Shown here piece by piece: positions 1-7,250 of a stretch of DNA of 28,152 nt. Position 1 is the first letter of the stretch. Every line of letters begins with the position of its first letter. The DNA is taken from positions 1 through 28,152 of IMG/VR virus record IMGVR_UViG_638341086_000001; one strand, 5' to 3'. The DNA comes from a virus. Lineage: Duplodnaviria > Heunggongvirae > Uroviricota > Caudoviricetes. Made by a program: the position numbers and the translations under genes. The notes beneath the pieces were generated by a model. The model searched no databases and was not told the origin of the DNA. It was given only the letters and a program-made list of their open reading frames with translations.

Positions 1-601
1 CGTAATCGTCGGCGTTCGGTTTACTGTCGACCACGTGATACCGGCTGGCGCTGACAAGAGTTACCGGGTTAATAGTCAACAGGCCATCAGTTACAGCCTC
101 ATCAATGGCGCTGCGCAGAAATGACAGGTTATTCCTGATTGTTTTCAGCTTAGTTTTTCGGCTGGCTATCCAATTTTTTAGTACCGCAGGCGTCAATTCT
201 GTTACATGTAGTTTATGTAGTTCTGATAGTGCTGATAGACATTTTTCGTAACCGCCAATGGTTGACGGCGACAGATTGCGGTTCATGCAAATTTTCAGGT
301 ATTCATCAAGATAGGACTTAATATTTTTGGTTTTCTTTACTACACCGAATAACTCCAGTTTTTTGGAACTGGGGAAATATTTCGCATATTCAAACGTTCC
401 GCTGGCGATCTGATTTTGTATCTCCCCTAGCAGGCGCTCAGCATATTTAATACCACGTGTATTTGCCTCAAGCCGAGACAGGGGCTCCCTGCAAAGAACC
501 CCTTTATATGTGAAAGTGATAACTAGTGTTGAAGCAGTTTTATGCTTACGAATAGTTACTCCTCTTGGCAGAGATAATAATCCTTGTTCTTTCTTGCCCA
601 T
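1..601 (-). CDS. int: Tyrosine integrase, N-terminal ~200 codons (3' end lies beyond the window start)
   Basis: Minus-strand frame open from ATG (601-599) to position 1 with no stop. Translation MGKKEQGLLSLPRGVTIRKHKTASTLVITFTYKGV...GIKYAERLLGEIQNQIASGTFEYAKYFP...IRNNLSFLRSAIDEAV resembles the arm-binding/core-binding N-terminus of lambda-family integrases. Start lies inside the excisionase 3' end. Absent from the ORF track because it has no in-window stop. Confidence 0.8.
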   Translation of the reverse strand, partial: MGKKEQGLLSLPRGVTIRKHKTASTLVITFTYKGVLCREPLSRLEANTRGIKYAERLLGEIQNQIASGTFEYAKYFPSSKKLELFGVVKKTKNIKSYLDEYLKICMNRNLSPSTIGGYEKCLSALSELHKLHVTELTPAVLKNWIASRKTKLKTIRNNLSFLRSAIDEAVTDGLLTINPVTLVSASRYHVVDSKPNADDY

Positions 602-765
602 TTTGAAACCTCTATTAAGTCGACCCAGCGTTCTTTAACTCCGTCGACTTTTAATACATGAACCCCTTCTTTCCATATTCCTCTTTGTATCCGTTTGTTA
701 ACGGCATCAACCGTTTCTCCCGCGTCGCGGCAGTAGGTTGATATAGGCACGCAATCCAGCCCCAT
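556..765 (-). CDS. xis: Excisionase-like small DNA-binding protein
   Basis: 69-aa ORF (MGLDCVPISTYCRDAGETVDAVNKRIQRGIWKEGVHVLKVDGVKERWVDL...), basic with W/K-rich winged-helix-like pattern, overlapping the integrase start by 46 nt as in int-xis modules; RBS GAGGTG upstream of ATG. Confidence 0.6.
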   Translation of the reverse strand: MGLDCVPISTYCRDAGETVDAVNKRIQRGIWKEGVHVLKVDGVKERWVDLIEVSKWARKNKDYYLCQEE

Positions 766-1120: not shown

Positions 1121-1174
1121 TGAACCGCCCCGGGAATCCTGGAGACTAAACTTCCTGAGAAAGAGGTAAACAGG

Positions 1175-1501
1175 ATGACTAAAAATACTCGTTTTTCCCC
1201 TGAAGTCCGTCAACGGGCAGTCCGTATGGTTCTGGAAAGTCAGGGCGAATATGACTCACAATGGGCGACAATTTGTTCCATTGCTCCAAAGATTGGCTGT
1301 ACGCCGGAGACTCTGCGTGTCTGGGTTCGCCAGCATGAGCGGGATACCGGGGGCGGTGATGGAGGGCTCACCACCGCTGAACGTCAGCGTCTGAAAGAGC
1401 TGGAGCGTGAAAATCGTGAACTGCGCCGCAGTAACGATATCCTTCGCCAGGCTTCCGCTTATTTTGCGAAGGCGGAGTTCGACCGCCTCTGGAAAAAATA
1501 A
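1175..1501 (+). CDS. IS629 OrfA (HTH transposase N-terminal protein)
   Basis: 108-aa [57 protein letters not shown]... with leucine-zipper-like C-terminus; RBS GAGGTAAACAGG upstream. Confidence 0.9.
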
Positions 1502-2388
1502 TGCCACTGCTGGATAAGCTGCGTGAGCAGTGCGGGGTCGGACCGGTATGCAGTGAACTGCATATTGCCCCGTCAACGTATTACCACTGTCAGCAACAGC
1601 GACATCATCCGGATAAACGCAGTGCCCGTGCGCAGCGCGATGACTGGCTGAAGAAAGAGATACAGCGCGTATACGATGAAAATCACAAGGTATACGGTGT
1701 GCGTAAAGTCTGGCGTCAGTTGTTACGGGAAGGTATCAGAGTGGCCAGATGCACTGTGGCACGTCTCATGGCGGTTATGGGACTTGCCGGTGTTCTCCGG
1801 GGTAAAAAGGTCCGTACGACCATCAGCCGGAAAGCCGTTGCCGCAGGCGACCGCGTAAACCGTCAGTTCGTGGCAGAACGACCTGACCAGCTGTGGGTGG
1901 CTGATTTTACTTACGTCAGCACATGGCAGGGCTTCGTCTATGTGGCGTTCATCATTGATGTGTTTGCCGGATACATTGTGGGGTGGCGGGTCTCATCGTC
2001 CATGGAGACGACATTCGTGCTGGATGCACTGGAGCAGGCGTTATGGGCCCGTCGACCGTCCGGCACGGTCCATCACAGTGATAAAGGTTCTCAGTATGTA
2101 TCGCTGGCCTACACACAGCGGCTTAAGGAAGCCGGATTACTGGCATCAACAGGAAGTACAGGCGACTCGTATGACAACGCGATGGCGGAGAGCATCAATG
2201 GTCTTTACAAAGCGGAGGTAATACACCGTAAGAGCTGGAAAAACCGTGCAGAAGTGGAACTGGCCACACTCACGTGGGTGGACTGGTATAACAATCGACG
2301 ATTGCTGGAAAGGCTGGGCCATACTCCTCCGGCAGAAGCAGAAAAAGCTTATTATGCTTCCATCGGAAACGATGATCTGGCAGCCTGA
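1501..2388 (+). CDS. IS629 OrfB (DDE transposase catalytic subunit)
   Basis: 295-aa ORF in -1 frame relative to OrfA; integrase-core DDE region ...WVADFTYVSTWQGFVYVAFIIDVFAGYIVGW...HHSDKGSQYVS...DNAMAESINGLYKAE... Confidence 0.9.
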   Translation: MPLLDKLREQCGVGPVCSELHIAPSTYYHCQQQRHHPDKRSARAQRDDWLKKEIQRVYDENHKVYGVRKVWRQLLREGIRVARCTVARLMAVMGLAGVLRGKKVRTTISRKAVAAGDRVNRQFVAERPDQLWVADFTYVSTWQGFVYVAFIIDVFAGYIVGWRVSSSMETTFVLDALEQALWARRPSGTVHHSDKGSQYVSLAYTQRLKEAGLLASTGSTGDSYDNAMAESINGLYKAEVIHRKSWKNRAEVELATLTWVDWYNNRRLLERLGHTPPAEAEKAYYASIGNDDLAA

Positions 2389-2430
2389 GTTCACAGATAA
2401 AATACTCTCCAGGAAACCCGGGGCGGTTCA

Positions 2431-2602: not shown

Positions 2603-3171
2603 TCATTCCGGATGCTCCTGAGCCACATTGAAATCGCCATGATCACGACAAGGCATCACAACAAATTCAGGATTGCCATACATTGAGTTGATGATGGAAT
2701 CAAACTGAATTCTGACCGCTTGCCCGTCACCGGAGGAACGTAACTGGACGGGAATAAATTTACGCTCACGACCAAACATCTTCTCTGGATAACTCAGGTA
2801 ACCCGCCTGGATCACCGGGTGTGTACAGAGGTCAAATTTTTTCGGAATGATGCGTTCCAAATCCGGAAAACAACCGTCCACCAATTTAATGCCGGTAATG
2901 GACAGCCGGCGCTGAAACTGGTCGCGATGAACAGGATCGGCTCTTTACTAAAAATCAGCTCTGTCGTTTCGGCTTTGGCCGGGACGCCACCTTCGAACTG
3001 GACAATGATGTTTTTCTTCGTCCGGATGCCGTGAGTCATGCGCAGTGCTACGAAACCATTGGTTGCCTCAATATGTTTTGGCGTGATGTGAAGACCGTTC
3101 AGGTAATAACGAACGTCGTTTTTAGCAGCGCACACCAGAGCGGCGCGAATAAGTTTTGACTGGATGATCAT
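2603..3171 (-). CDS. DNA polymerase III beta sliding-clamp (DnaN)-like protein, truncated two-domain homolog; apparent frameshift near 2939-2941
   Basis: Start ATG 3171-3169 overlaps the upstream gene's stop (ATGA). Frame 1 gives MIIQSKLIRAALVCAAKNDVRYYLNGLHITPKHIEATNGFVALRM...; frame 2 gives ...RLSITGIKLVDGCFPDLERIIPK...NPEFVVMPCRDHG. Motifs DVRYYLNG, ATxG..L, KLVDGxFPD and VVMP occur in the same order as in E. coli DnaN (recalled from memory). The two frames join only if one nucleotide is restored in the CC at ~2939. Confidence 0.55.
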
Positions 3172-3917
3172 GCTTTATCCTCCCATCCGATTACCTGAAA
3201 AAGCCCCATCTTCGGGTGATACCAGCGTGTGCCGCGTGGTTCAGCCTCTGACATCATTTGGTGGAACGCCGCCATAAATGTCTCAAGCTCGACGACAGCC
3301 CTGCGAGACAACAGACCGTCCGGAGTCATAAATTCGTGCGTGTCGGTAGGGATGTGGTAGGCGTTGACCAGATTCCGACACTTGGCGTCACTCATTCCGC
3401 TTTTGGCTACCACCTGGCGGTAACCGACATATCCGGTGCGCATTGTGCCGCGTTTGATGTTCTCCACAGCTTTGGTGACCGTTTCGATCTTCTCTTCAAC
3501 ATGACTCAGGCGCTTCTGCTGGCGAACGGCATCGGCGGCCATTGCAGCGATCATCTCCATTTCCGTCAGCGGCGCGTGAGTTCGGAAATAGCTGTTAACC
3601 AGTTCGCGCTGAACCTGCCATGCAAGAGCATCGTTAAAAGGCTTCGTCAACATCAGGTAACCAGACTCGAAAAGAATGATCCCTTTGGCAGTTCGCGCGG
3701 CAAAGGCATCAGAAAGTGACTCCGTACGTATTACGTCCGCAGTCATTTCAAGAAAATCCACCCCTTCGATAAAGTGAGAACGGTTGCGGTTAAACGCAGC
3801 ACGGGCGGTACCTTCCGGGCGCTGGTGGACGTCATCAATTATTGCAAATGTCACAACACGCTGACCGCGATATTCGATTACCGGAAACTGTTTGTTGTTG
3901 ATGGTTACAATATTCAT
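3168..3917 (-). CDS. ORF6N-domain (KilA-N/Bro-N-like) protein, antirepressor-like
   Basis: ATG at 3917-3915 with GGAG RBS 6 nt upstream (the ORF track's longer 3992 start uses a non-ATG codon). MNIVTINNKQFPVIEYRGQRVVTFAIIDDVHQRPEGTARAAFNRNRSHFIEGVDFLEM matches the ORF6N signature; C-terminal ~130 aa unassigned. Confidence 0.55.
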   Translation of the reverse strand: MNIVTINNKQFPVIEYRGQRVVTFAIIDDVHQRPEGTARAAFNRNRSHFIEGVDFLEMTADVIRTESLSDAFAARTAKGIILFESGYLMLTKPFNDALAWQVQRELVNSYFRTHAPLTEMEMIAAMAADAVRQQKRLSHVEEKIETVTKAVENIKRGTMRTGYVGYRQVVAKSGMSDAKCRNLVNAYHIPTDTHEFMTPDGLLSRRAVVELETFMAAFHQMMSEAEPRGTRWYHPKMGLFQVIGWEDKA

Positions 3918-3960: not shown

Positions 3961-4788
3961 TTACTTAACCTGAATAAATGGTGTGTTGGCACCGCTGGTC
4001 ATGTATTGCGGCAGTGTACCGTTCCACTTGTTGATGGCTTCCAGCTCCATAACACCGGGGTTCTGGCGCAGAGCTTCACCGCGTAAACGAATAGCATCGG
4101 CTTCGGCCTGGGCTTTTGTGCGAATCGCATCTGCCTGTCCGGCAGCTTCCGCGCGCAACATGTTGGCTTCCGCTTCGCGCTGTTTTACTTCCTGCTCGCG
4201 TTGCAGGGTTTTCTGGTTCGCCGTGACTTTGGCATTAATGCTGTCGATAACAGTAGGCGGGTACTCCGGCTTACCCACATATGAGAGGCTCATTACCTGA
4301 ATACCGATGGGCGTCATTTCTTCCTGAATGTCTTTAAGAGCTGCATCCAGCAGCTCAGACTTGCCGCCGTCGATAAATTTGTCGGTGGTCATTTTGCTGG
4401 CCAGTCGGTTGAGTGCGTCGGCTATCTTCTGGCGCAGGTCGGTGTCGGTAATGTCGTCCACGCCTTTGCGGTAGGTCTGAAAGACTGTGGTAACTTTGGA
4501 TGGATCAACTTTGTAGGCCACGCCGATGTGATAGCCGATGGTTGTACCGTCACTCATCTGGAAACTGAATGGATCATCGTAGGTCTTCATCTGCTTAAAG
4601 GTCGGGAAGATGTAAACCTCAGTGTTCCATCCCGTCCAGTAGCGCCCAACACCGACCACTTCACCGACGCCTTTATCGTCGCCCAGTTTGTTTACTTTGA
4701 TGCCCACATTACCAGGCTCAACGCGATCGCAACCGACAAGGCCAATGGTCGGCAGAACAAGGGCTAAAGCAAAAAGTAATTTTTTCAT
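3961..4788 (-). CDS. SPFH/band-7 (prohibitin-like) domain lipoprotein
   Basis: 275 aa; N-terminal signal with lipobox LVGC (MKKLLFALALVLPTIGLVGC); central SPFH-like region and C-terminal coiled coil (QREQEVKQREAEANMLRAEAAGQADAIRTKAQAEADAIRLRGEAL); start overlaps the upstream small gene's stop (ATGA). Confidence 0.75.
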   Translation of the reverse strand: MKKLLFALALVLPTIGLVGCDRVEPGNVGIKVNKLGDDKGVGEVVGVGRYWTGWNTEVYIFPTFKQMKTYDDPFSFQMSDGTTIGYHIGVAYKVDPSKVTTVFQTYRKGVDDITDTDLRQKIADALNRLASKMTTDKFIDGGKSELLDAALKDIQEEMTPIGIQVMSLSYVGKPEYPPTVIDSINAKVTANQKTLQREQEVKQREAEANMLRAEAAGQADAIRTKAQAEADAIRLRGEALRQNPGVMELEAINKWNGTLPQYMTSGANTPFIQVK

Positions 4789-4973
4789 CTTTTATCCTTA
4801 GAAAAAGAAAGACCCTTATAAATGGCATAAATGCAGGGCGGGGTCAGACACGCCAGAGCAAAGCCAGAAATCACTGCTACCGTATCCTTCATTGATATGA
4901 GGGCCGGAACGATTAATCCGTAAATACATGTGATAATTGCCAGTGATATAACTATTCTGAAATAAATGTTCAT
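4785..4973 (-). CDS. Small two-helix membrane protein, partner of the SPFH lipoprotein
   Basis: 62 aa, MNIYFRIVISLAIITCIYGLIVPALISMKDTVAVISGFALACLTPPCIYAIYKGLSFSKDKR; RBS CAGGAGG 4 nt before ATG; translationally coupled to the SPFH gene. Confidence 0.5.
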   Translation of the reverse strand: MNIYFRIVISLAIITCIYGLIVPALISMKDTVAVISGFALACLTPPCIYAIYKGLSFSKDKR

Positions 4974-5033
4974 GGTCCTCCTGATGTATTCGGCTTGCCT
5001 TATTTAATTGCGTCATGGTTAATTTCGTTTACG

Positions 5034-5426
5034 TCAGAATGGTTTTGTTGCCATCAGTTCGTAATATCCGGCGCTCCATGTGTCATATTTTCTGAACCAT
5101 TTTTCTGTATACTGTTTCCTGGCGATGAGTCTGCGCAGTCGTCTGATTGTTCGCTGGTGTGCGCGGGTATACTCTGTGGTTGATTCTCCACGTTTCCATA
5201 TCTCATTCCTGTTGAAGATAAAACGCTTGTCAGGATAGCGTTGTCGGAATCCTGAACGTTCAAAAGCGCGGGTGGTCATAAAGAATGCCAGGTAACGAAT
5301 TGCCGTTTTTCGGGTGAGGCATTTTTTTGTTCTTCCGTGGCGTGTTACAAAAAATAACGGGCCGACGGGTGTATCATGTTTCTGTAATGCCTGGTCAATG
5401 GTGCTGGCGGTGCGGTTGTCGATCAT
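5034..5426 (-). CDS. Hypothetical basic protein (130 aa)
   Basis: ATG 5426-5424 preceded by GGAGA and overlapping an upstream stop (ATGA); MIDNRTASTIDQALQKHDTPVGPLFFVTRHGRTKKCLTRKTAIRYLAFF...; R/K-rich, no family recognised. Confidence 0.5.
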   Translation of the reverse strand: MIDNRTASTIDQALQKHDTPVGPLFFVTRHGRTKKCLTRKTAIRYLAFFMTTRAFERSGFRQRYPDKRFIFNRNEIWKRGESTTEYTRAHQRTIRRLRRLIARKQYTEKWFRKYDTWSAGYYELMATKPF

Positions 5427-5612
5427 TTCTTTATTTCTCCCGAATAACGTTCATGACTCATTACTTCCCAGTTCCGGCCGTCGTCTTTCGATAACAGCCG
5501 CCAGCGACGGTTAACCTTCAGACTGAGATATCCGGTGCGCTGTATCCGATGCGGAAATATCCGTCGGCATCGGTACAACAACAGGACCTGCAATGCCTGC
5601 CGGTGGATCCGC

Positions 5613-5828
5613 TCAGGAATGCGTGTTGCTGTTAATGCCACCGGTTTCCTCCTGAGCAGGTGCTGTTATCTGATACCCCGCTCTTTCTGCCAGCCGTATG
5701 AATGTATCCATGCTGGCAATCAGCTCGCCATCGCGGACTTTGCAGACACCTGTGACTTGGCCATTTTCAATTGTCATAACGATCTGCACTTTTTCGTGCA
5801 CAACAGATACAGGGGATAAATTAGCCAT
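5613..5828 (-). CDS. Hypothetical protein (71 aa)
   Basis: ATG overlaps the upstream stop (TGATG); GGAGG RBS 8 nt upstream; MANLSPVSVVHEKVQIVMTIENGQVTGVCKVRDGELIASMDTFIRLAERAGYQ... Confidence 0.45.
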   Translation of the reverse strand: MANLSPVSVVHEKVQIVMTIENGQVTGVCKVRDGELIASMDTFIRLAERAGYQITAPAQEETGGINSNTHS

Positions 5829-6753: not shown

Positions 6754-7173
6754 TTATGCTTCCTCCTGATTTTGTTTATAAGCATCAGTCAATAACAACA
6801 TTGGATCACAGCCAAGAACATTAGCCAGAGGGATAAGCATGCTGATGGTTGGTTCGTACTCTCCGCTCTCCCACTGGATGATAATTTCTTCATCGAGATC
6901 GAGCAGCCTAGCGAGTTCGGCGGTTGTTAAGCCGCAGGTTTCGCGTTGGGTGCGAATCCGATTCTGGGAATTAATAGCTAAATTTTGTTTGCATAAACGT
7001 GACGCGGTGAGGCTATATTTTTGAGTTACAGCCAGGATGGAGCTGGCAAGTTCAATTAACTCAGGGTTATTGCTGCTATACAGTAGTGCACCAGTCCCTA
7101 CTAAGAGCTGAATATTCTCAAGAGCATCGTGCTGATTTGTTGGTAATCCCATATACGATGACATTTTTCTCAT
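6754..7173 (-). CDS. DNA-binding protein with C-terminal XRE-type helix-turn-helix, first gene of the cassette
   Basis: ATG at 7173 or 7164 (the latter better spaced from AGAGGA). N-terminal ~65 aa unassigned; C-terminal half RIRTQRETCGLTTAELARLLDLDEEIIIQWESGEYEPTISMLIPLANVLGCDPMLL is a classic Cro/C1-type HTH. Confidence 0.6.
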   Translation of the reverse strand: MRKMSSYMGLPTNQHDALENIQLLVGTGALLYSSNNPELIELASSILAVTQKYSLTASRLCKQNLAINSQNRIRTQRETCGLTTAELARLLDLDEEIIIQWESGEYEPTISMLIPLANVLGCDPMLLLTDAYKQNQEEA

Positions 7174-7204: not shown

Positions 7205-7250
7205 TATGTCAAGATAATAGGTTTACCGATTTCACCTGTCAATCGGTTTA
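7205..7250 (-). promoter_or_regulatory. Leftward (pL-like) sigma70 promoter with overlapping inverted-repeat operator
   Basis: On the minus strand: -35 TTGACA (7242-7237), 17-nt spacer, -10 TATTAT (7219-7214); inverted repeat ACCGATT-N9-AATCGGT (7225-7247) overlaps the -35 and spacer. Confidence 0.45.

What the first reader, a model, noticed from the sequence alone, without database searches (positions are those of the whole stretch)
3961..4973. SPFH/band-7 lipoprotein with a coupled two-helix membrane partner as prophage cargo
Seen: a 62-aa two-TM protein (strong RBS) is coupled by ATGA overlap to a 275-aa lipoprotein with lipobox, SPFH-like core and long coiled coil. Established: SPFH proteins usually work with a membrane partner (NfeD-type) and organise membrane microdomains; phage morons in early operons often mediate exclusion or membrane stress responses. 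Inference: candidate membrane-acting exclusion or abortive-infection pair rather than a phage housekeeping function.
Basis: partly seen in the sequence, partly recalled or inferred. Interest (0 to 1): 0.55.

Follow-up and report, generated by a model that had tools for sequence, protein, structure and literature searches.

The report
Phage SPFH lipoprotein with hairpin partner
A prophage carries a tightly coupled pair of genes, a tiny two-helix membrane protein and a lipid-anchored SPFH (HflK/prohibitin-like) scaffold protein. The same pair occurs in very different phages, virulent ones included, so it is probably a membrane-remodelling module used during infection rather than prophage defence cargo, and its function is still untested.

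Summary
Window 4785-4973(-) encodes a 62-aa two-TM hairpin. Window 3961-4788(-) encodes a 275-aa lipoprotein (lipobox LVGC, Asp+2) with a Band_7/SPFH domain (Pfam E=8e-31), a 65-residue helix and a conserved C-terminus. The two genes overlap by ATGA.

The predicted fold matches cage-forming SPFH proteins over its full length (HflK/C, prohibitin, erlin, stomatin).

The pair is a conserved module (PHROG 1130 + PHROG 200). A two-TM ORF lies upstream of the SPFH gene in 295 of 310 loci, against 1.2% for control ORFs. This holds in lambdoid, P2-like and P1-like phages, virulent N4 (gp19/gp20), rV5-like, crAss-like and Lak phages. At least 16 protein clusters fuse the two into one ORF.

The partner is not NfeD, and nothing matches known defence systems. 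In the temperate contexts I could place (here and P2-like P88), the pair sits in a repressor-controlled early lytic operon. No promoter or terminator of its own was found here.

My best reading is a viral two-component SPFH scaffold on the periplasmic face of the inner membrane, acting during lytic growth. The client is unknown; an FtsH-like target is the leading guess. Superinfection exclusion remains possible. Abortive infection is unlikely. No functional study was found in the searched literature.

The parts
4785..4973 (-). 62-aa two-TM hairpin protein, the SPFH partner (PHROG 1130). Predicted topology is N-in/C-in with a short periplasmic turn.
   Evidence: ORF; two hydrophobic segments; PHROG 1130 at E=1.5e-23; no Pfam, NCBIfam or PADLOC hit; all database relatives are named 'hypothetical protein'; dN/dS 0.30 against phiP27.
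4863..4907 (-). Conserved hairpin-turn motif of the partner (Pro23 ... Ser27 ... Gly37; P-x-[LM]-[IV]-S-x-x-[SD]...G).
   Evidence: These are the only near-invariant columns in the alignment of 16 partners from distant phages (A6). The same motif sits at residues 22-35 of the fused proteins.
4977..4982 (-). Shine-Dalgarno AGGAGG of the partner gene.
   Evidence: Read from the sequence.
4785..4788 (-). ATGA stop/start overlap that couples the two genes translationally.
   Evidence: Sequence. A 4-nt overlap is also the commonest arrangement in related loci (177 of 295).
3961..4788 (-). 275-aa SPFH/Band 7 lipoprotein (PHROG 200).
   Evidence: dN/dS is 0.035 against phiP27 and 0.008 against the P1-like RCS47.
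4726..4788 (-). Lipoprotein signal peptide with lipobox L-V-G-C (Cys20) and Asp at +2, the classical E. coli inner-membrane retention residue.
   Evidence: Translation. Cys20 is invariant in A1. The sorting rule is taken from established knowledge and was not tested here.
4165..4725 (-). SPFH (Band_7) domain, residues 22-208.
   Evidence: Pfam PF01145, E=8e-31; alpha/beta core in the AF2 model.
4063..4257 (-). Single long helix, residues 178-242. It corresponds to the coiled-coil wall segment of SPFH cages.
   Evidence: DSSP on the AF2 model. Foldseek full-length matches to HflK/C, prohibitin, erlin and stomatin.
3964..4062 (-). Conserved C-terminal module (NPxVMxLEAINKWNGTLP...PF.xVK). It has low confidence in the monomer model.
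   Evidence: Invariant columns in A1, A4 and A5. pLDDT is below 50 for residues 252-275.
7214..7242 (-). Context: a pL-like promoter (TTGACA-17-TATTAT, 11 of 12 matches) just downstream of the CI-like repressor gene. It is the likely driver of the leftward operon that contains the pair.
   Evidence: Consensus scan (a prediction only); repressor and CII-like labels; operon layout.

Best explanation
The two genes encode a self-contained, phage-borne SPFH membrane scaffold.

Shown here:
- The large protein has the complete architecture of cage-forming SPFH proteins: SPFH core, one long helix and a conserved C-terminal module. It carries a lipoprotein signal.
- The small protein is a two-TM hairpin of a single, widely conserved family.
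- The two genes are adjacent and mostly overlapping in nearly every phage lineage that has the SPFH gene.
- In at least 16 independent protein clusters they are fused into one ORF, in the order hairpin, basic linker, signal-peptide-like TM with lipobox, SPFH.

Inferred:
- The hairpin lies N-in/C-in in the cytoplasmic membrane, and its conserved P-x-L-I-S turn faces the periplasm.
- There it docks the lipid-anchored SPFH protomer. The pair would then rebuild in two pieces what HflK/HflC do with one chain (TM fence plus SPFH ring plus helical dome), forming a ring or cage on the periplasmic face of the inner membrane.
- Here and in P2-like P88 the pair sits in an early, repressor-controlled lytic operon, and it is common in virulent phages. 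I therefore infer that it is made early in lytic growth and conditions the host membrane for phage development by corralling a membrane patch or client.

The client is unknown. My leading guess (about 0.15-0.2) is the universal bacterial FtsH-type membrane quality-control machinery, by analogy with HflK/C and prohibitin.
For: - Domain and fold: Pfam Band_7 E=8e-31. The AF2 model has pLDDT 80.7, with a core at residues 19-175 and a helix at 178-242. Foldseek top hits are all cage-forming SPFH proteins over the full length: HflK/C 7vhq at E 2e-13, erlin, PHB1/2, stomatin, flotillin and QmcA-YbbJ.
- Module conservation: the same pair occurs in phiP27, P88 (P2-like), RCS47 (P1-like) and N4 gp19/gp20; in rV5-like 4MG and Bruynoghevirus TL; and in crAss-like IAS virus, a Lak megaphage and Burkholderia phage Maja. 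A partner is present in 295 of 310 loci and 33 of 43 SPFH clusters, against 2 of 167 control ORFs.
- One partner family: the partners align with near-invariant P23, S27 and G37.
- Fusions: P0002, plus at least 16 of the 150 best 50%-identity cluster representatives, are hairpin+SPFH fusions. They keep the motif, a K/R-containing linker and mostly the lipobox. This fixes the topology and argues for one complex.
- Strong purifying selection: dN/dS 0.008-0.035 on the SPFH gene.
- Lytic-phase placement: the pL operon here, with no flanking promoter or terminator; the cox-to-A early operon in P88; downstream of the RNAP2 genes in N4.
- Breadth: 423 phage records, many of them virulent; 630 plasmids, 599 non-mobilizable and, among the rows listed, mostly 90-115 kb, which I read as phage-plasmids; only 30 hits among 185,579 species genomes; 467 clusters at E<=1e-30.
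Against: - No experiment exists. Oligomerisation, localisation, partner binding and any client are all inferred.
- The AF2 run on the natural fusion gave no usable contact information.
- The promoter and terminator scan is crude, so expression in lysogens is not excluded.
- A Pasteurella prophage 'HflK/C-like' SPFH protein (PM0222) is detectable in lysogens and outer-membrane vesicles and affects virulence (PMC9872710). Its homology to this family was not tested.
- The +2 residue is not Asp in all lineages (Tyr in N4, Glu in rV5-like), so inner-membrane retention is not certain everywhere.
- The haloarchaeal virus relative HRTV-8 and Erwinia phage phiEa21-4 lack a clear adjacent partner. For phiEa21-4 the survey found only a candidate two-TM ORF 419 nt upstream.
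- The FtsH idea rests on analogy only. Identity to HflK/C is 16-20% and the NCBIfam scores are far below cut-off.
Confidence: 0.45

Rival explanations
1. Superinfection exclusion. The periplasm-facing complex is made early in infection, or leakily from the prophage. It blocks DNA entry or membrane penetration by later-arriving phages, as T4 Imm/Sp or P22 SieA do.
For: - The location fits: inner-membrane hairpin plus periplasmic lipoprotein.
- Expression is early.
- Both virulent and temperate phages carry the pair, as is true of known exclusion genes.
- The partner and the signal peptide diverge (21-26% identity) beside a nearly identical SPFH body, which could reflect diversifying pressure.
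- In PhiSH19 a distant SPFH gene lies next to a gene annotated 'superinfection exclusion protein'.
Against: - There is no similarity to any known exclusion family. The partner has no Pfam hit at E<=1, and PADLOC gives none.
- The SPFH body is extremely conserved (dN/dS 0.008-0.035; 64% identity between N4 and a lambdoid prophage) across phages that use unrelated receptors and hosts in different phyla. That is unlike lineage-specific exclusion proteins.
- The PhiSH19 neighbour has no TM segment and is not the partner.
Confidence: 0.2
2. Lysis-lysogeny tuning through FtsH. The protein mimics or perturbs HflK/C so that CII-like regulators are stabilised or destabilised in temperate phages.
For: - HflK is the only PDB relative found by sequence (E 2e-4), and HflK/C is the top fold match.
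- The first gene of the same leftward operon carries the PHROG label 'CII-like regulator'.
- The idea is raised, without data, in PMC10269572 and PMC8540360.
Against: - Most carriers are obligately virulent phages with no lysogeny decision. PMC8540360 makes the same objection.
- NCBIfam HflK/HflC scores are 18-25 bits against cut-offs of 134-660.
- The 'CII-like' label is only a family name.
Confidence: 0.08
3. One reading: a prophage-expressed abortive-infection or defence pair that damages or gates the membrane when another phage infects.
For: The proteins act at the membrane, the pair lies in a variable accessory region of a prophage, and many defence effectors are small TM proteins.
Against: - No PADLOC model matches.
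- No promoter or terminator of its own was found inside a repressed early operon.
- The module is common in virulent phages, where an altruistic abortive system makes no sense.
- Purifying selection is very strong and conservation is pan-phage.
- The searches returned no paper linking SPFH to defence.
Confidence: 0.07
4. Lysis-timing control. The hairpin is a holin- or antiholin-like protein (class II topology), and the SPFH cage restrains membrane lesion formation, for example in N4-type lysis inhibition.
For: The partner has the size, two TM segments and charged C-terminus typical of class II holins. Prolonged lysis delay in N4 is my own recollection, not something shown here.
Against: - The prophage has its own complete lysis cassette about 12 kb away: class II holin 16420-16626, lysozyme 17026-17559, Rz/Rz1 17857-18351.
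- In the loci whose neighbouring genes I examined, the pair never sits beside recognisable lysis genes.
- No holin family matched the partner.
Confidence: 0.07
5. Lysogenic-conversion or virulence lipoprotein that benefits the bacterial host, such as the TLR2-active OMV cargo reported for Pasteurella PM0222.
For: PM0222 is a prophage-encoded SPFH protein of 25-35 kDa. It is detected in lysogens and OMVs, and its deletion attenuates virulence (PMC9872710).
Against: - Homology of PM0222 to this family was not tested.
- Any triacylated lipoprotein activates TLR2.
- The module occurs in virulent phages of environmental and plant bacteria.
- It sits in an early-operon position.
Confidence: 0.05

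Closest known systems
HflK/HflC (E. coli FtsH-modulating SPFH cage)
   Same: The domain order is the same: SPFH core, long helix, C-terminal cap segment. It is the top structural match (7vhq, E 2e-13) and the only PDB relative found by sequence. The SPFH domains sit on the periplasmic side of the inner membrane.
   Different: Identity is 16-20%, and NCBIfam HflK/HflC scores are far below cut-off. HflK/C are two paralogous chains, each with its own N-terminal TM helix. Here a single SPFH protein is lipid-anchored, and the TM part is a separate (or fused) hairpin. No link to FtsH has been shown.
SPFH-NfeD operons (QmcA-YbbJ, YqiK-YqiJ, archaeal stomatin PH1511-PH1510)
   Same: A two-gene operon pairing an SPFH protein with a small membrane partner. 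QmcA-YbbJ is among the fold matches (8z5g).
   Different: The partner has no NfeD domain and no Pfam hit at all. It is 52-84 aa of pure hairpin. By established knowledge, the E. coli NfeD-type SPFH domains face the cytoplasm, whereas this one carries an export and lipidation signal.
Prohibitin PHB1/PHB2 and erlin1/2 cages
   Same: Full-length fold matches (E about 4e-13). They face the intermembrane-space or luminal side. Several phage members are annotated 'prohibitin family protein'.
   Different: These are eukaryotic, TM-anchored hetero-oligomers, about 15% identical to this protein, and they have no hairpin partner.
PHROG 200 'lipoprotein' + PHROG 1130 'membrane protein' (e.g. N4 gp20/gp19, P88 gp12/gp11, phiP27 L05)
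   Same: These are the same families: E=1e-114 and 1.5e-23, with 64-98% identity for the SPFH protein.
   Different: Nothing distinguishes them. These are the uncharacterised families this locus belongs to. The small gene is not annotated in the phiP27, RCS47 or Stx2-phage records.
YjeT (DUF2065), the small two-TM protein encoded just downstream of hflC in E. coli K-12
   Same: A small two-TM protein genetically linked to an SPFH pair.
   Different: It is not homologous (hhalign probability 0.5%). Its inter-helix loop is long and its gene order is the opposite.
Phage superinfection-exclusion membrane proteins (T4 Imm/Sp, P22 SieA, T5 Llp)
   Same: Early-expressed envelope proteins found in both virulent and temperate phages. 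Llp is also a lipoprotein.
   Different: There is no sequence or domain similarity, and none of them contains an SPFH domain. The comparison is functional analogy only.

Membership tests
SPFH / Band 7 superfamily | Band_7 (PF01145) domain scoring above the Pfam gathering threshold | tested here: met
   107.9 bits against a cut-off of 23.6, E=8e-31, residues 22-208
SPFH / Band 7 superfamily | SPFH alpha/beta fold followed by a long helix, as in the cage-forming members | tested here: met
   AF2 model with pLDDT 80.7. The 50 best Foldseek PDB hits listed (69 in all with E<=0.001) are all SPFH-fold proteins, among them HflK/C, PHB, erlin, stomatin and flotillin.
SPFH / Band 7 superfamily | Assembly into a membrane-attached homo- or hetero-oligomeric ring or cage | not testable with these tools
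   Only monomer prediction was available. The low-confidence C-terminus is compatible with folding on assembly but proves nothing.
HflK / HflC (FtsH modulators) | Equivalog-level sequence match (TIGR01933/TIGR01932, NF008181/NF008259) | tested here: not met
   18.6-25.4 bits against cut-offs of 134-660
HflK / HflC (FtsH modulators) | N-terminal transmembrane anchor on the SPFH chain, and two paralogous subunits | tested here: not met
   The protein has a lipoprotein signal peptide with a lipobox instead, and the module has only one SPFH gene.
HflK / HflC (FtsH modulators) | Physical or functional interaction with FtsH | not testable with these tools
   No data are available.
SPFH-NfeD operon | Partner carries an NfeD (PF01957) OB-fold domain | tested here: not met
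   The partner has no Pfam family at E<=1. It is 62 aa, consisting only of two TM segments and a turn.
PHROG 200 / PHROG 1130 phage module | Profile match of both proteins | tested here: met
   E=9.7e-115 and E=1.5e-23
PHROG 200 / PHROG 1130 phage module | Adjacent, same-strand, usually overlapping gene pair | tested here: met
   ATGA overlap here. A partner is present in 295 of 310 loci, and 177 of those have a 4-nt overlap.
Known anti-phage defence systems (PADLOC-DB v2) | Match to any defence-system protein model | tested here: not met
   No family matched either protein at E<=1.
Holins (class II) or T4 Imm-type immunity proteins | Match to a curated holin or Imm family | tested here: not met
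   No Pfam or NCBIfam hit for the partner. The prophage has its own class II holin at 16420-16626 (annotated as such in the relative).

The most novel reading that the evidence does not exclude
The hairpin+SPFH pair is a pan-phage 'viral prohibitin/HflK' system: a two-piece, self-assembling cage. Virulent and temperate phages of Pseudomonadota and Bacteroidota (N4, rV5-like, crAss-like, Lak, and lambda-, P2- and P1-like) would build it on the outer face of the host cytoplasmic membrane. It would capture a universal host membrane machine such as FtsH, or isolate a membrane patch. That would be a general and so far undescribed strategy of host-membrane takeover.
Probability: 0.3. Interest if true: 0.7.

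Novelty: new variant of a known kind. Interest (0 to 1): 0.5.

Why it matters
SPFH cages (HflK/C, prohibitin, stomatin, flotillin, erlin) have recently been solved, but what they do to their membrane patch is still debated. Phages have kept a minimal two-gene version under very strong purifying selection, and in very different lineages. These include N4-like phages, P1-like and other phage-plasmids, Shiga-toxin phages, and the abundant gut crAss-like and Lak phages.

No paper I found tests what this version does, and several state that its role is unclear. The small partner gene is unannotated in the phiP27, RCS47 and Stx2-phage records and is 'hypothetical protein' elsewhere. The large gene is frequently mislabelled 'serine protease'.

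A defined, genetically tractable viral SPFH system such as N4 gp19/gp20 would give a clean handle on SPFH mechanism. It could also reveal a common step in how phages prepare the host envelope.

Tried and rejected
- NfeD partner: rejected, because the partner has no domain hit and is too small.
- Known defence system: PADLOC found nothing.
- HflK/HflC orthology: rejected on NCBIfam cut-offs.
- YjeT/DUF2065 as a homologue of the partner: rejected (hhalign probability 0.5%).
- 'Superinfection exclusion protein' next to the SPFH gene of PhiSH19 as the partner: rejected, because it has no TM segment.
- Partner as the phage's holin: rejected, because there is a separate lysis cassette.
- AF2 of the natural fusion protein P0002, to see the hairpin dock on the SPFH domain: it returned helices only, with pLDDT 50-79 in the hairpin and no contact output, so it was uninformative.
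- First IMG/VR scan with a mixed alignment: it returned only near-identical loci.
- P1 C1-operator search upstream of the pair in RCS47: operators were found only near dmt, about 1.7 kb away, so regulation there is unresolved.
- Literature searches for a functional study, a defence or counter-defence link, or expression data on phage SPFH genes: only genome-annotation remarks and speculation turned up.
- Homology of Pasteurella PM0222 to this family: could not be tested, because the sequence was not retrievable with these tools.
Full report
**Observation**

- The first, 4785..4973, encodes 62 aa with two hydrophobic segments. An AGGAGG motif precedes it at 4977-4982.
- The second, 3961..4788, encodes 275 aa beginning MKKLLFALALVLPTIGLVGC|D. 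That is a lipoprotein signal peptide with Cys20 and Asp at +2.
- The stop codon of the first gene and the start codon of the second overlap as ATGA (4785-4788).

Pfam places Band_7/SPFH on residues 22-208 (107.9 bits, cut-off 23.6, E=8e-31). An AlphaFold model built on 26 homologues (mean pLDDT 80.7) shows the SPFH alpha/beta core, a single 65-residue helix (178-242) and a C-terminus that is disordered in the monomer.

Both genes are under purifying selection against phiP27. dN/dS is 0.035 for the SPFH gene and 0.30 for the small gene. Against a P1-like copy the mature SPFH region gives dN/dS 0.008 at dS of about 1.1.

**Where it sits**

The window is a phiP27-like lambdoid prophage of E. coli. 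Close relatives are integrated next to yecE.

The pair lies in the leftward early operon. A CI-like repressor gene (7309-8001, minus strand) is followed by a strong sigma-70-like promoter at 7242-7214. Downstream come a gene labelled 'CII-like regulator' by PHROGs, several small unknown genes, the pair, an ORF6N anti-repressor, and finally xis.

The scan found no promoter-like or terminator-like site flanking the pair on its own strand. That scan is crude.

The phage's own lysis cassette lies on the other arm: class II holin 16420-16626, lysozyme 17026-17559, and Rz 17857-18351 with Rz1 embedded at 18077-18262. The small protein is therefore not the phage's holin.

**The pair is a conserved module far beyond this prophage**

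The same arrangement was found in each of these phages:
- phiP27, where the small gene is unannotated.
- The P2-like phage P88, as gp11/gp12, inside the cox-to-A early operon.
- The P1-like phage-plasmid RCS47, where the small ORF is unannotated and overlaps by 20 nt.
- The virulent phage N4, as gp19/gp20, with an 8-nt overlap and 64% SPFH identity.
- rV5-like 4MG, as gp235/gp233 with one inserted gene between them.
- Bruynoghevirus TL, as gp10/gp12.
- Burkholderia phage Maja, the crAss-like IAS virus and a Lak megaphage.

tblastn finds the SPFH protein in 423 of 50,697 phage records, many from obligately virulent groups. It also finds it in 630 plasmids. Of these, 599 are non-mobilizable. Among the rows listed, most are 90-115 kb, which I read as phage-plasmids, and they include the roughly 100-kb Yersinia pestis plasmid. 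About 10% of complete E. coli genomes carry the region (542 of 5,426).

In contrast, a pattern-limited scan of 185,579 species genomes found it only 30 times. An exhaustive profile search finds 467 clusters at 50% identity with E<=1e-30.

A same-strand ORF of 40-140 aa with at least two hydrophobic segments ends within 700 nt upstream of the SPFH gene in 295 of 310 loci, and in 33 of 43 SPFH clusters. In 177 loci the overlap is exactly 4 nt. Only 2 of 167 control ORFs (1.2%) have such a neighbour.

The misses fall into a few groups:
- outgroups, namely the spirochaete and other bacterial TM-anchored SPFH proteins and archaeal HRTV-8;
- crAss-clade loci that fell below my hydrophobicity threshold, and other unexamined loci;
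- the phiCbK-like CcrSwift cluster, which has a three-TM neighbour instead and is missed at cluster level only;
- L089 and L090, where an unrelated sequence abuts the gene.

**The partner**

Sixteen partners from distant lineages align as one family, with near-invariant Pro23, Ser27 and Gly37. This gives a motif P-x-[LM]-[IV]-S-x-x-[SD]...G at the turn between the two helices, with basic residues at both ends.

The partner has no Pfam, NCBIfam or PADLOC hit. Every database relative is named 'hypothetical protein'. It is therefore not an NfeD protein. It is also unrelated to YjeT, the small two-TM protein encoded downstream of hflC in E. coli (hhalign probability 0.5%).

One feature stands out. 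The mature SPFH region is 86-93% identical at the DNA or protein level among lambdoid, P2-like and P1-like copies, yet the signal peptide and the partner are only 21-26% identical. Ancient partner alleles have evidently been shuffled onto a nearly fixed SPFH body.

**Rosetta-stone fusions**

P0002 (347 aa, eight NCBI members) is an in-frame fusion of the RCS47-type partner to the SPFH lipoprotein.

Among the 150 best 50%-identity representatives, 19 have N-terminal extensions of 60-100 aa. At least 16 of these share one layout:
- a hairpin with the P-x-L-I-S motif at residues 22-35;
- a linker containing Lys/Arg;
- a third hydrophobic segment, mostly ending in a lipobox Cys;
- the SPFH domain.

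The fusions argue that the two proteins work in one complex. They also fix the topology: the C-terminus of the hairpin must be cytoplasmic, because it precedes an export signal. The conserved turn therefore faces the periplasm, where the SPFH domain is.

**Fold**

Foldseek against the PDB returns only cage-forming SPFH proteins at the top, aligned over the full length. These are HflK/HflC (7vhq, E 2e-13), erlin1/2, prohibitin PHB1/2, stomatin, flotillin and QmcA-YbbJ.

By sequence, HflK is the only meaningful PDB relative (E 2e-4). The NCBIfam HflK/HflC models score 18-25 bits against cut-offs of 134-660. So the protein works like an HflK/prohibitin-type scaffold but is not a member of those families.

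**Mechanism**

Shown: the architecture, the coupling, the conservation, the fusions, the selection, and the early-operon placement here and in P88.

Inferred:
- The lipid-anchored SPFH protomers and the hairpin form a ring or cage on the periplasmic face of the cytoplasmic membrane.
- The hairpin supplies in trans the transmembrane fence that HflK/C carry in cis.
- Asp at +2 supports inner-membrane retention in the enterobacterial copies by the established +2 rule. Other lineages have Tyr, Gly, Glu or Ser-Lys there, so this inference is weaker for them.
- The module is common in virulent phages and, here and in P88, sits in a repressor-controlled early operon. I therefore infer a lytic-cycle role in conditioning the host membrane.

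There is no cytoplasmic domain, so any client must be engaged in the membrane plane or in the periplasm. FtsH is the leading candidate by analogy only, and I give it about 0.15-0.2.

**Rivals**

- Superinfection exclusion (0.2) fits the location and timing. It does not fit the extreme conservation across phages that use unrelated receptors and hosts.
- A lysis-lysogeny role through FtsH and CII (0.08) is contradicted by the many virulent carriers. PMC8540360 makes the same objection.
- Abortive infection or defence (0.07) is disfavoured by the virulent carriers, the absence of a PADLOC hit, and the absence of a promoter of its own.
- Lysis timing (0.07) and lysogenic conversion (0.05) have little support. 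For the latter, the Pasteurella prophage protein PM0222 shows that at least one prophage SPFH protein is present in lysogens and OMVs (PMC9872710). Its homology to this family is untested.

**Literature**

Seven full-text searches and eleven papers consulted gave no functional study of a phage SPFH protein, apart from the Pasteurella PM0222 work above, whose relation to this family is untested. Authors say the role is unclear (PMC13239085, PMC7760394, PMC8540360) or speculate about HflKC, FtsH and CII (PMC10269572, and a 2026 crAss preprint). I found no description of the conserved hairpin partner or of the fusions.

**Verdict**

This is a real, intact, strongly selected two-gene module. It is already catalogued as anonymous PHROG families and has no known function. 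It is best classed as a new variant of the SPFH scaffold theme: lipid anchor plus hairpin partner, virus-borne.

The NfeD analogy is wrong, and the 'prophage cargo / abortive infection' reading is unlikely. Interest is moderate (0.5). It would rise to about 0.7 if the cage-and-client model proves true.

Noticed in passing
window 1121-2430: A 1310-bp IS3-family insertion sequence lies between xis (556-765, minus strand) and the rest of the early-left operon. It has 41-nt imperfect inverted repeats (TGAACCGCCCCGGG...), orfA at 1175-1501 and orfB at 1501-2388 (plus strand). The related prophage in strain SCU-106 lacks it. By my recollection it resembles IS629/IS1203.
   Followed up: partly
window 2603-3171 (minus strand): The 190-aa gene of the related prophage (SCU-106, locus L119 2602-3171) is split here into 119-aa and 93-aa ORFs. 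The N-terminal piece matches the PHROG 'RusA-like Holliday junction resolvase' family over 72 residues. This looks like a frameshift, a sign of prophage decay.
   Followed up: partly
L002 (phiP27) 3304-3492; L004 (RCS47) 4775-5011; Stx2 phage records: The small partner gene is not annotated in the phiP27, RCS47 or Stx2-converting phage GenBank records. The SPFH gene is often labelled 'serine protease' or 'transposase fusion protein', which looks like an inherited mis-annotation.
   Followed up: yes
proteins P0002, P0176, P0180, P0187, P0192, P0195, P0197, P0198, P0204, P0205, P0208, P0214, P0218, P0241, P0252, P0258, P0318: These are natural hairpin+SPFH fusion ORFs in many independent clusters. 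Most keep the internal lipobox Cys. Signal peptidase II might therefore cut the fusion into a three-TM fragment and a mature lipoprotein, which would be polyprotein-like processing.
   Followed up: partly
window 3995-4740 compared with L003 (P88) and L004 (RCS47): There is a sharp mosaic boundary. DNA identity is 86-91% across the mature SPFH coding region. It drops to background in the signal-peptide codons, the partner gene and the last 11 codons or so. Partner alleles appear to be exchanged as a cassette.
   Followed up: partly
L004 (RCS47) 3967-5011: In this P1-like phage-plasmid the pair lies between ban (dnaB) and upl/plp. As far as I recall, canonical P1 carries tciA/tciB/tciC there (tellurite/colicin-resistance-like membrane genes). 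That would be a swap of one membrane accessory set for another.
   Followed up: no
window 5423-5641 and 5034-5426 (minus strand): Immediately upstream of the pair are a 72-aa ORF, annotated 'ParE family toxin-like protein' in RefSeq relatives (PHROG 1525, unknown function), and an overlapping 130-aa ORF (PHROG 1886, unknown function). No obvious antitoxin was identified.
   Followed up: no
window 6754-7173 (minus strand): The first gene after the pL-like promoter is an HTH protein that PHROGs labels 'CII-like regulator' (E=2e-50). It lies on the leftward arm, unlike lambda cII.
   Followed up: no
window 13000-14100 compared with L119 14563-14730: ARAGORN finds no tRNA gene anywhere in the window. 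The closely related SCU-106 prophage has two tRNA-Arg genes downstream of the antiterminator, so this region differs between the two prophages.
   Followed up: no
window 16631-16975 (plus strand): A 114-aa ORF of unknown function is inserted between the class II holin (16420-16626) and the lysozyme gene (17026-17559).
   Followed up: no
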